NCBI GenBank assembly: GCA_015680685.1
Contig: MNCI01001083.1
Span: 111,599 to 175,598 of the forward strand
Source: Gnetum montanum
Lineage: Eukaryota > Plantae > Gnetophyta
Length of the DNA: 64,000 bases
Reading direction: 5' to 3'
This document shows, in pieces, positions 31,116 through 32,955 of the stretch (position 1 is its first letter; the number at the start of each line of letters is the position of its first letter). Position numbers and translations under genes: made by a program. The notes under the pieces were generated by a model. The model was not told the origin of the DNA. It saw only the letters and a program-made list of their open reading frames with translations, and did no database searches.

Positions 31116-31159
31116 ATACTAAAATACAGCCCTTCTCATCAAACATTAATAATACACAA

Positions 31160-31420
31160 TTGATCATGACGAGCTGAAAAGTCAACACTAAAACCAATAC
31201 GAATAATACCATTGGGATTGATAAAAGGGTGACTTCCATAATAGTATTTCTTAATGTGACCCATAATGATAGTCCTGGAGATTCTAGGAATTTGGTAAAT
31301 GTATTTTGTATAGTTGAATAAATTATGATATTCACGTATTAATTGCCTGTTGTATTTAAAATAGACAACATAAACTTCATCAAATCTAATAAGAGTTACA
31401 AACAGTCGTATGTCAACCTC
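31160..31420 (-). pseudogene. Captured C-terminal fragment of glutathionyl-hydroquinone reductase (GHR, omega-like GST, YqjG family)
   Basis: ORF 31139-31423: EVDIRLFVTLIRFDEVYVVYFKYNRQLIREYHNLFNYTKYIYQIP..MGHIKKYYYGSHPFINPNGII..DFSARHD matches plant GHR EADIRLFVTLIRFDEVYAVHFKCN..REYPNLFNYTKDIFQIP..HIK.HYYGSHP.INP.GII. Confidence 0.88.
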
Positions 31421-31662
31421 CAAATTTTTTTCACAATATCGGTTGCAAAGTCCTTTCTTGTGAGAAGCATATGCAATCCCTTAACCTGTCCTTTCATTTT
31501 GGTATCCCTCGGCCATCTAATTCATGTAAAAAAAGAAAAAACATTCTTTACTTCTTGCTCGTATGCATATTCAAGAAGTCTCATATCGACCACTTAAATC
31601 AGTTGACAAAATATCATGAATGACAGCATCATACAAATCTTGCATGGCTTTGAATGCACCTT
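31416..31662 (-). pseudogene. Captured callose synthase (GSL8/GSL10-like) fragment, frameshifted
   Basis: Manual translation: GAFKAMQDLYDAVIHDILSTDLSGRYETS*ICIRARSKE..IRWPRDTKMKGQVKGLHMLLTRKDFATDIVK(fs)NLE, compared with the recalled GA.KAM.D.Y.VV.HD.LS.D.R...DTW.IL.RAR.EGRLFSRI.WPRD.E.KEQVKRLHLLLTVKDSAANIPKNLEA. Confidence 0.82.
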
Positions 31663-32955
31663 ATTCTTGCTCCTATTGCTATAGAAATCCATGGGAATAT
31701 TGAAGGCGTCCTGAAGCATCAGCAAGCCAATGTAGAGAAGACAAGCCAAAGGCCTTTAGAACTAATTCTCTCTGTAATGCCCCAAAGGGATAACAAATAT
31801 GTCTATTCTACAGTGAAAAAAAACTTGCGAACTCAATCTAGGCATTGTTATGTAGTGTTGTTTGGCTGATCATGTTGTGAAATGTAAGCTTGAATACATT
31901 GCAAATGTGATTGTAAAGATCAATGCTAAGCTTGGGTTACAGAACTCATCATTTGGGAAAAAGCAAAATAAGGTCGTGCTCTAATATCAAATGTGTTGTC
32001 TATTATAGTCAGTGTGGATGTTTCTCATTCTGGAGTAGGGGAATCTGATCCATCCATATGTTCTGTTGTTGCAAGTATGGATTGGCCTTTCTTCTTCAAG
32101 TATAAGGCTACTGTTTGTCAATAAAAGAGAGGGTTAGAGATCTTTGAACCTTTGTATTCTGAAACTGAGGACGAACAAGGACGTAAGAAGAGGAGTGGCA
32201 TTTTCAAGCAGATCTTGCTATCGTTTAAACAACAGTCCAACCACACCTGAGTGGATCCTGTATTACAAGGATGGTGTAAGTGATGGACAGTTTGAGATGG
32301 TTCTAAACAATGAAATGGGTTTTTTGAAAAAGGCTTTAGATGCACTAGGATGGAATGGAGATGGTCAGTCTTAATTAGGTTCCCCTGATGAACCTTTAAT
32401 GAGGAAGGAAAAAGTAAGCCAATGACAAAATTACTTTCATTGTTGTTCAAAAACATCATCATACAAGATTTTGCCTTGACCTTAGTATAGGATGCCCAAC
32501 TTTGAAGAACGGAAATATGTTACCATGCAGCATTGTGGACACCATAATGACAATTTGATTTCTACCTTTCCAGCCATGTAGGGATAAAGGGGACTAACAA
32601 ACCAACAAACTATCATGTTCTAAGGGATGACAATGGCTTCACAGTGGCTGAGATTCAAAAGCTGACCAATGCCATTTAATTTACATATGCAAGATGTACG
32701 CAACCTGTCTATTTTCCCTGCATGCTACTATGCCCATTTGGCTCAATTCTGATCCCATTCACATCTCAAATCTCAGTGCTACTCTGTGCATGGTTTGCAT
32801 TTTTGGCTTTTCTTTGCCACTGGTATAAAACTCACACACCAAACTGCTCAACTATTATGGCACCGAAGTAGTGACCCCTCCCTGCCTTTTTCTTGCAGGA
32901 GCCACCTTGTAGGATTGCATTCCCAATGTGAAAAGAAGAATTGTGGTTTGTTTTT
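31660..32955 (+). pseudogene. AGO: Argonaute MID-PIWI (C-terminal half), intron-free, with stops and frameshifts
   Basis: LELILSVMP..YSTVKK(fs)[150 protein letters not shown]. Homology is clear to about 32750. A possible LH.NVK tail lies near 32915-32955. Confidence 0.95.

What the first reader, a model, noticed from the sequence alone, without database searches (positions are those of the whole stretch)
31140..31700. Seamless three-gene chimera: GHR, callose synthase and Argonaute joined without introns or spacers
Seen: on the minus strand a callose synthase piece (..KNLE) runs directly into a GHR C-terminus (EVDIRLF..) at 31416-31420. Both parents normally encode Glu-Ala there, which suggests about 5 nt of microhomology. 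The 5' end of the callose synthase piece abuts the AGO piece back-to-back at about 31660, on the opposite strand. Known: GSL8/10 genes are very intron-rich, DNA-level capture (Pack-MULE, Helitron) usually keeps introns, and maize Bs1 captured spliced mRNAs of several genes. Inference: serial template switching across at least three cellular mRNAs, including a strand inversion. A defence theme (silencing, plasmodesmal callose, redox) is possible but speculative.
Basis: partly seen in the sequence, partly recalled or inferred. Interest (0 to 1): 0.8.

Follow-up and report, generated by a model that had tools for sequence, protein, structure and literature searches.

The report
Retrotransposon carrying three spliced gene pieces
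A dead plant retrotransposon carries joined pieces of three host genes (a glutathione enzyme, a callose synthase and, backwards, an Argonaute) that lack their donors' introns, so they were likely copied from mRNA and stitched at 4-5 shared bases by the element's reverse transcriptase, as is thought for maize Bs1.

Summary
The chimera is real. GHR (−, ~31136-31421), GSL8/10-type callose synthase (−, 31417-31672) and Argonaute (+, 31669-32743) are joined at 5-nt and 4-nt overlaps, and single contigs from related organisms span both junctions. The pieces are RNA-derived. Donor DNA contigs break where donor mRNA reads run through: two callose synthase introns (also in 37 and 33 of 40 other plant loci), at least one AGO intron and probably one GHR intron. 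The cargo lies in the protease-RT spacer of a decayed Ogre-like Ty3/gypsy element with LTRs and a target duplication. A second copy, about 14% diverged, exists. The pieces carry stops and frameshifts, and no junction-spanning reads were seen in three RNA runs. Best reading: LTR-mediated multi-gene retroposition (Bs1 type), now dead cargo. Unusual points: the spliced AGO piece is antisense to gag-pol, and its donor groups with a fern/gymnosperm-only AGO clade. A counter-silencing role has a Drosophila precedent but no support here. The scan had noted this kind of capture in another genome (one gene, e1-7790852) but not this sequence.

The parts
25585..25589 (.). Left target-site duplication candidate (ATAAT)
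   Evidence: 4 of 5 bases match 43394-43398
25590..26531 (-). 3' LTR of the host Ty3/gypsy element, TG..CA
   Evidence: 78.1% identical to 42487-43393, K2P 0.265; the inner edge matches the sister element's LTR edge
27685..28758 (-). Integrase remnant
   Evidence: Pfam rve and Integrase_H2C2; extent from homology to the sister element
29160..29519 (-). Additional (archaeal-type) RNase H remnant, between RH and INT
   Evidence: Pfam RVT_3, E 6.9e-9
29538..30023 (-). RNase H remnant
   Evidence: Pfam RT_RNaseH, E 1.4e-16
30011..31060 (-). Reverse transcriptase remnant and its N-terminal lead-in
   Evidence: Pfam RVT_1, E 2.3e-15; homology to the sister element up to 31060; many family contigs up to ~31064
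31136..31421 (-). GHR piece: last 87 codons plus, likely, the start of the 3' UTR with a ~16-nt deletion; left edge uncertain (31097-31161); probably one donor intron missing at about 31375-31382
   Evidence: Donor mRNA matches 31162-31421 without a break; the donor DNA piece ends at 31382 and is followed by 103 unlaid letters in X1 and X2
31417..31421 (-). GHR/CalS junction, 5-nt microhomology (GGAGG on the minus strand), same codon phase in both donors
   Evidence: GHR reads leave after 31421; the CalS loose end contains the same 5 bases
31417..31672 (-). GSL8/10-type callose synthase piece; two donor introns missing (31494|31495 and 31592|31593); stops and frameshifts
   Evidence: Donor contig piece ends in X1, X2, X5; GT-AG introns at the same places in 37 and 33 of 40 plant loci
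31669..31672 (.). Inverted CalS/AGO junction, 4-nt overlap (GCTC on the plus strand)
   Evidence: CalS mRNA leaves after 31672; the AGO donor contig begins matching at 31669
31669..32743 (+). Argonaute MID-PIWI piece, antisense to gag-pol, cut off before the stop codon, no poly(A); at least one ~105-nt donor intron missing at 31806/31817; 3 stops in six translated segments, and several frameshifts
32972..33455 (.). ~62-bp tandem repeat array in the spacer
32744..36850 (.). Rest of the protease-RT spacer; no Pfam family and no homology to the sister element's spacer
37227..37815 (-). Protease region remnant
   Evidence: Homology to the sister element only; no Pfam hit; the protease label is recalled from the motif
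38403..39692 (-). gag remnant
   Evidence: 44.5% aa identity to the sister element's gag, which hits Retrotrans_gag weakly (E 2.3e-4, below the curated cut-off); no direct Pfam hit
42487..43393 (-). 5' LTR, TG..CA
43394..43398 (.). Right target-site duplication candidate (ATAAC)

Best explanation
This is a dead three-gene retrocopy: intron-less pieces of GHR, callose synthase and Argonaute sit in the protease-RT spacer of an Ogre-like LTR retrotransposon, and were likely joined by its reverse transcriptase switching templates at 4-5 shared bases. Shown: the identity of the pieces, the missing introns, both overlaps, the host element, a second copy and the decay. Inferred: host mRNAs were co-packaged in the particle; RT switched element to GHR 3' end to CalS at GGAGG (the two pieces that are sense to gag-pol). 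The AGO piece is inverted and spliced, so its template was likely not the mRNA during first-strand synthesis. Most likely it was an antisense RNA or cDNA of an already processed AGO copy, or the switch occurred during second-strand synthesis. The spacer likely tolerated the cargo because it does not encode polyprotein (it is an intron in Ogre). The chimera was then copied at least once and has since decayed, likely without function.
For: Introns: CalS donor contig pieces end at 31494/5 and 31593/4 in X1, X2 and X5 while mRNA depth is continuous; GT-AG introns lie at these places in 37 and 33 of 40 plant loci. AGO donor contigs hold 114-115 letters where the window has 10, in three runs. Overlaps of 5 and 4 nt have a chance of about 7e-4 under a simple base-composition model; Tan et al. 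report a median of 6 bp (PMC5131818, passages). Host: LTR pair, TG..CA, 4/5 TSD, RT-RH-aRH-INT. Ages agree: half the LTR distance is 0.13, and pieces versus donors are 0.10-0.13. Decay: stops and frameshifts; 13 of the 23 GHR differences shown fall on codon positions 1-2; the window has lost G/C relative to the reads, 86 versus 30. RNA: 0 of 672 and 0 of 511 laid poly(A) reads are 99%+ identical, no joints are listed, and the listed loose ends at both junctions continue as donor sequence.
Against: The antisense AGO piece does not fit plain switching onto mRNA; transduced sequences are usually sense to gag-pol (PMC7264820, part 1 of 3). The second copy is only 0.14-0.16 from the window copy whereas the LTRs differ by 0.265, so it is younger than the insertion or the cargo entered later. 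Near-identical contigs in X1 and X5 stop matching at 31097; X1 has 182 other letters there, and their 30 letters next to the joint are not found in the window. The link from cargo to RT therefore rests on the window assembly alone. Separate processed CalS and GHR copies exist in the run contigs (records 3 and 11), so assembly from earlier pseudogenes is possible. Microhomology at the two cargo/element junctions could not be measured. The GHR intron was not seen as GT-AG.
Confidence: 0.7

Rival explanations
1. The pieces are RNA-derived but entered an already integrated element later, through cDNA-templated break repair with microhomology joining, or by cDNA recombination. This would allow either orientation.
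For: Explains the inversion; all pieces are truncated with no poly(A); the copy-to-copy distance is smaller than the LTR distance; the left flank differs at 31097 in X1 and X5.
Against: It needs three unrelated cDNAs at one break. The cargo-donor distance equals half the LTR distance, as capture near insertion predicts. Multi-gene capture inside LTR elements is documented (PMC5131818).
Confidence: 0.15
2. The chimera was put together stepwise from pre-existing processed pseudogenes of the three genes, by recombination between retroelement RNAs or by deletion between neighbouring retrocopies.
For: An intron-less CalS copy that continues past the junction (X2 record 11) and an intron-less GHR copy (X1 record 3) exist. 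An earlier AGO retrocopy read backwards would give the inversion.
Against: Those copies are no closer to the window (0.16-0.17) than the donors are (0.10-0.13). No separate processed AGO copy appeared among the pieces shown.
Confidence: 0.1
3. The cargo was an anti-silencing device: element transcripts would carry 1.07 kb of antisense Argonaute and yield small RNAs against the host AGO.
For: Orientation and length of the AGO piece; the chimera was copied at least once. Drosophila telomeric elements repeatedly captured aub/piwi fragments (PMC13534243, passages; the authors note the targeting was not verified). Athila siRNA854 acts on a host mRNA (PMC3276544, abstract).
Against: Only two copies were seen against a very large pol family, and the second lost 295 nt including the AGO start. 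The donor AGO is still expressed in X16 and X17. Gene-fragment capture averages ~400,000 per gymnosperm genome (PMC13477047), so an AGO piece is expected by chance.
Confidence: 0.07
4. DNA-level capture by a Pack-MULE, Helitron or CACTA element nested in the retrotransposon.
For: Such elements join fragments of several genes (general knowledge; review PMC13317346).
Against: At least three, probably four or more, donor introns are cleanly missing. No terminal inverted repeat around the cargo is among the 25 longest of 57 inverted pairs.
Confidence: 0.02

Closest known systems
Maize Bs1 (Elrouby and Bureau 2001, 2010; seen only through passages in PMC5131818 and PMC13317346)
   Same: LTR element carrying exonic pieces of three unlinked host genes; low copy number with shared switch points.
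   Different: Bs1 formed a transcribed and translated hybrid gene. Here the pieces are broken, one is inverted, and gag and pol remnants are both kept around the cargo.
LTR-mediated retroposition by template switching (Tan et al. 2016, PMC5131818, passages)
   Same: Partial intron-less copies, microsimilarity at the joints, several parental genes, secondary copies.
   Different: There the cargo replaced part of the element's ORFs. Here it sits in a non-coding spacer, and one spliced piece is antisense; the passages found under 'antisense' concern transcription, not inverted capture.
Ogre-type Tat Ty3/gypsy elements (PMC6317226, PMC4408406, passages)
   Same: RT-RH-aRH-INT order; gag-PR separated from pol by non-coding DNA; tandem arrays.
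   Different: The spacer is about 5.8 kb. This domain order is described for angiosperms, while the donors here look gymnosperm. Splicing was not tested.
Drosophila telomeric elements with captured aub/piwi/nxf2 fragments (PMC13534243, passages)
   Same: A retroelement holding a fragment of an Argonaute-family gene.
   Different: Non-LTR elements, repeated captures of 140-235 bp, amplified, with piRNA evidence. Here there is one event, two copies and no small-RNA data.
TE gene-fragment capture in gymnosperms (PMC13477047, passages)
   Same: LTR elements carrying exons of non-contiguous genes; 13.68% of host TEs have two or more fragments.
   Different: The passages read do not resolve junctions, intron loss or orientation; supplements were not read.

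Membership tests
LTR-mediated multi-gene retrocopy (Bs1 type) | Captured pieces lack donor introns | tested here: met
   CalS 2 introns, AGO at least 1, GHR probably 1
LTR-mediated multi-gene retrocopy (Bs1 type) | Flanked by one LTR element (both LTRs, TSD) | tested here: met
   LTRs 25590-26531 and 42487-43393, TSD 4/5; the RT-side link is not confirmed by a contig
LTR-mediated multi-gene retrocopy (Bs1 type) | Microsimilarity at gene-gene junctions | tested here: met
   5 nt and 4 nt; P about 7e-4
LTR-mediated multi-gene retrocopy (Bs1 type) | Microsimilarity at gene-element junctions | not testable with these tools
   No cargo-free copy of this spacer was available
LTR-mediated multi-gene retrocopy (Bs1 type) | Secondary copies with the same switch points | tested here: inconclusive
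   A second copy spans the GHR/CalS junction and keeps the inverted order (X1 record 4, X2 record 10); its flanks are unknown
Functional chimeric gene like Bs1 | Intact, transcribed hybrid ORF | tested here: not met
   Stops and frameshifts; no junction-spanning reads in X13, X16, X17, of which 2-26% was read
LINE-made processed pseudogene | 3' poly(A) tail with its own TSD | tested here: not met
   AGO and CalS end inside the CDS; only one A8 run (inside AGO) and one T10 run (spacer) in 30900-33600
Ogre/Retand Tat elements | aRH between RH and INT | tested here: met
   definition in PMC6317226
Ogre | gag-PR separated from pol by a spliced intron | tested here: inconclusive
   The spacer is present in both elements of the window; splicing was not tested
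Ogre | RT phylogeny and PBS type | not tested
   No reference set at hand; the PBS is degenerate
AGO-like clade (lycophytes, ferns, gymnosperms) | Long-branch clade apart from angiosperm AGOs, limited to these lineages | tested here: inconclusive
   The window piece is sister to Wollemia AGO (SH-aLRT 99) within a 7-row clade with four named fern AGOs and one unnamed protein (99), apart from named AGO5 rows (quick tree, 46 rows). No reference labelled AGO-like, AGO4 or AGO2 was included; the clade name comes from PMC7994812
GSL8/10-type callose synthase | Glucan_synthase gene with the shared motif and intron positions | tested here: met
   the label GSL8/10 is recalled and comes from no call
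Anti-silencing gene capture | Small RNAs from the cargo targeting the donor; amplification of carriers | not testable with these tools
   No small-RNA run was offered; two copies seen

The most novel reading that the evidence does not exclude
A plant LTR retrotransposon captured a spliced Argonaute mRNA in antisense and used it, while young, to make small RNAs against a fern/gymnosperm-specific Argonaute. This would be a plant counterpart of the Drosophila aub/piwi captures, and would point to that little-studied clade as a transposon silencer.
Probability: 0.07. Interest if true: 0.75.

Novelty: new member of a known kind. Interest (0 to 1): 0.4.

Why it matters
It is a base-resolved gymnosperm-type example of Bs1-like exon shuffling, with intron loss and microhomology checked against the donors' own DNA and mRNA. 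It shows that the long protease-RT spacer of these elements can carry cargo. The spliced but inverted piece shows that the simple mRNA-switch model is incomplete. Unless small RNAs against the donor AGO are found, it is a fossil with no function.

Tried and rejected
No whole genome is held, so copies could be counted only from run contigs. PDB and word-indexed searches with the frameshifted CalS piece found nothing (2 chance hits at E 1.3-1.4; 0 of 7 candidates). No RNA holder was listed by the run search; this is not evidence either way. Pfam found no further captured gene in 32750-36900 (12 frames; one hit at E 0.07). The spacer's tandem array shows no clear likeness to the sister element's arrays (best scores 46.5-56.5, shuffle maximum 50). 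Assembly artefact was rejected (spanning contigs). A LINE origin was rejected (no poly(A)). An in-frame CalS-GHR fusion protein was considered: the junction is in phase and GHR has no stop in 87 codons, but CalS is broken and the GHR changes are near neutral. The Bs1 paper PMC2899935 is not held, so the orientation of its pieces was not checked. The careful AGO tree did not finish; the quick tree is cited. No look-alike of this stretch among earlier findings. A search for Argonaute + retrocopy + gymnosperm + LTR retrotransposon gave 0 papers; searches listed no plant case of this kind by title or abstract start. No supplements were read; those of PMC13477047 may list such elements.

Full report
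Observation. Six-frame translation shows GHR and callose synthase residues on the minus strand and an Argonaute MID-PIWI reading on the plus strand. GHR matches poplar GHR at E 1.5e-33 and plant GHRs at 60-74% (120 listed of 342). AGO hits Pfam Piwi in all three frames; its best match among 1.84 billion representatives is a Wollemia AGO (E 5.5e-57, next best 3.6e-27). The short, frameshifted callose synthase piece was missed by two searches. A motif scan returned 50 plant loci. Transcript L024 is a Glucan_synthase, 68.8% identical to the piece over 231 nt, tblastn E 1e-11.

The junctions are genomic. A single 939-nt contig of run X2 covers 31156-31960 with 7 differences. X5 contigs cover 31097-31620 and 31596-32094, and an X1 contig covers 31425-32094. 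These runs carry three organism labels and three study labels; one may be related to the window's source.

Intron loss. I laid three DNA runs and three RNA runs at 80% likeness, so that the donor genes and their mRNAs also align. For AGO, the donor contig matches 31669-31806, then holds 114-115 letters where the window has 10, then matches 31817-31930, in X1, X2 and X5. Its end at 31930 and a joint at 32267/32269 suggest more introns. For callose synthase, the donor pieces were not among the rows listed. I read their ends from the from_end column, which I checked on the AGO record: a contig of one depth value ends at 31494/5 and 31593/4 in X1 and X5, with the same middle piece in X2, while mRNA depth is continuous. 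Independently, spliced alignment of 40 of the 50 loci (7 served as transcript references, 3 had too little upstream) found GT-AG introns 63 nt upstream of the motif in 37 of 40 and 154 nt upstream in 33 of 40. Many of these loci are redundant, and two are transcripts. These positions map to 31494|31495 and 31592|31593. For GHR, the donor piece ends at 31382 and is followed by 103 unlaid letters in X1 and X2, 7 nt from RFDE|VY; this is probably an intron, but its ends were not seen.

Junctions. GHR mRNA reads leave the window after 31421. The callose synthase loose end contains the five bases of 31417-31421, so the overlap is 5 nt, in the same codon phase; whether it was once 7 nt could not be seen, as rows were hidden. 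Callose synthase mRNA leaves after 31672 and the AGO donor contig starts at 31669: a 4-nt overlap across an inversion. A total of 9 or more over two junctions has a chance of about 7e-4 in a simple composition model. AGO mRNA leaves at 32743, before the stop codon, and there is no poly(A).

Host. The cargo lies in an element on the minus strand: LTRs 42487-43393 and 25590-26531 (TG..CA, 78.1% identical, K2P 0.265), a 4/5 target duplication, gag and protease remnants (by homology to a sister element), a 5.8-kb spacer, then RT, RH, aRH and INT. That order is the Ogre/Retand type (PMC6317226, passages), and Ogre has an intron between gag-PR and pol (PMC4408406, passage). GHR and callose synthase are sense to gag-pol; AGO is antisense.

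Copies and age. Contigs show a second copy that spans the GHR/callose synthase junction and jumps from 31523 to 31819 in AGO, so the inverted arrangement predates the duplication (X1 record 4, X2 record 10). Distances: cargo to donors 0.10-0.13; half the LTR distance 0.13; copy to copy 0.14-0.16. The first two agree with capture near insertion. The third means the second copy is younger than the insertion, or that the cargo came later. Other processed GHR and callose synthase copies exist. Near-identical contigs in X1 and X5 stop matching at 31097, and X1 has 182 other letters there; this is unexplained.

State today. AGO has 3 stops in six translated segments and several frameshifts; callose synthase has stops and frameshifts; GHR has no stop in 87 codons. 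Of the 23 GHR differences shown in the tables (a partial list), 6, 7 and 10 fall on codon positions 1, 2 and 3, close to neutral. The window has lost G/C relative to the reads (86 vs 30 and 38 vs 14), as methylated DNA does. In poly(A) runs, 0 of 672 and 0 of 511 laid reads were 99%+ identical (13 and 25 were 95-99% and cannot be assigned), and no RNA joint was listed. X13 had 1 of 153 at 99%+, mostly on pol. Only 26%, 26% and 2% of these runs were read, and none is a small-RNA library.

Mechanism. The best reading is LTR-mediated retroposition by microhomology-guided template switching (Tan et al., PMC5131818, passages; Bs1 through PMC13317346, passages). The two sense pieces fit directly. 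The antisense, spliced AGO piece needs an antisense RNA or cDNA of a processed copy, or a second-strand switch; transduced pieces are usually sense (PMC7264820, part 1 of 3). Rivals are later cDNA-templated repair (0.15), assembly from older pseudogenes (0.10), anti-silencing function (0.07) and DNA capture (0.02).

The AGO donor. In a quick tree of 46 rows, the piece is sister to Wollemia AGO inside a clade with fern AGOs (both SH-aLRT 99), apart from named AGO5 rows. This fits the AGO-like clade reported only in lycophytes, ferns and gymnosperms (PMC7994812, passages), though no labelled reference was in the tree. A second AGO phylogeny (10.1101/2022.01.18.476847, passages) added nothing on this clade.

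Novelty. Multi-gene capture by LTR elements is known, and gene-fragment capture is very common in gymnosperms (about 400,000 fragments per genome; 13.68% of host TEs with two or more; PMC13477047, abstract and passages). Counter-silencing by captured Argonaute-family fragments is proposed in Drosophila (PMC13534243, passages), and siRNA cross-talk between captured fragments and donors is described in maize (10.1101/777037, abstract). My searches listed no plant LTR element with an antisense spliced AGO piece, within a library that lacks most subscription papers. Verdict: a real, well-resolved new member of a known kind; dead cargo; interest 0.4.

Noticed in passing
window ~1066-20925: Sister Tat-like element (LTRs 86.3% identical, K2P 0.154) with a ~6-kb protease-RT spacer holding plus-strand (antisense) ORF remnants at 10415-13669; no Pfam hit for the three tested.
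   Followed up: partly
window 907-1060, 20935-21782, 24023-24088 versus 46280-47330: An older repeat copy appears split by the sister element and another insert; its second copy lies 3 kb beyond the host element, suggesting that the host is nested in an older LTR element.
   Followed up: no
window 31097; runs X1 and X5: Contigs 98-99% identical to this locus carry different sequence left of 31097 (182 letters in X1): an indel polymorphism, a deletion in the window's allele or a young duplicate.
   Followed up: partly
run contigs laid on window 31175-31631: Further processed copies: an intron-less callose synthase copy continuing past the junction (X2 record 11), an intron-less GHR copy (X1 record 3) and a GHR copy with a 77-nt deletion.
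   Followed up: partly
window 30617-30754: A palindromic stretch with a 37-bp duplication interrupts the RT remnant.
   Followed up: no
window ~40600-42170: GC-rich insert with 34-bp repeats between gag and the 5' LTR; 41355-41431 resembles 55038-55115.
   Followed up: no
window 62261-63115 (-): 284-codon open frame with the C-terminal part of a PP2C phosphatase (Pfam E 7.8e-12) running into unrelated sequence; possibly another processed fragment.
   Followed up: no
window 59522-59836 (+): ORF with a Transposase_32 match (E 2.6e-8, below the curated cut-off).
   Followed up: no
window 27685-31060 and 5015-8348: Both elements have the RT-RH-aRH-INT order that PMC6317226 assigns to angiosperm Ogre/Retand, in a genome whose captured genes look gymnosperm.
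   Followed up: partly
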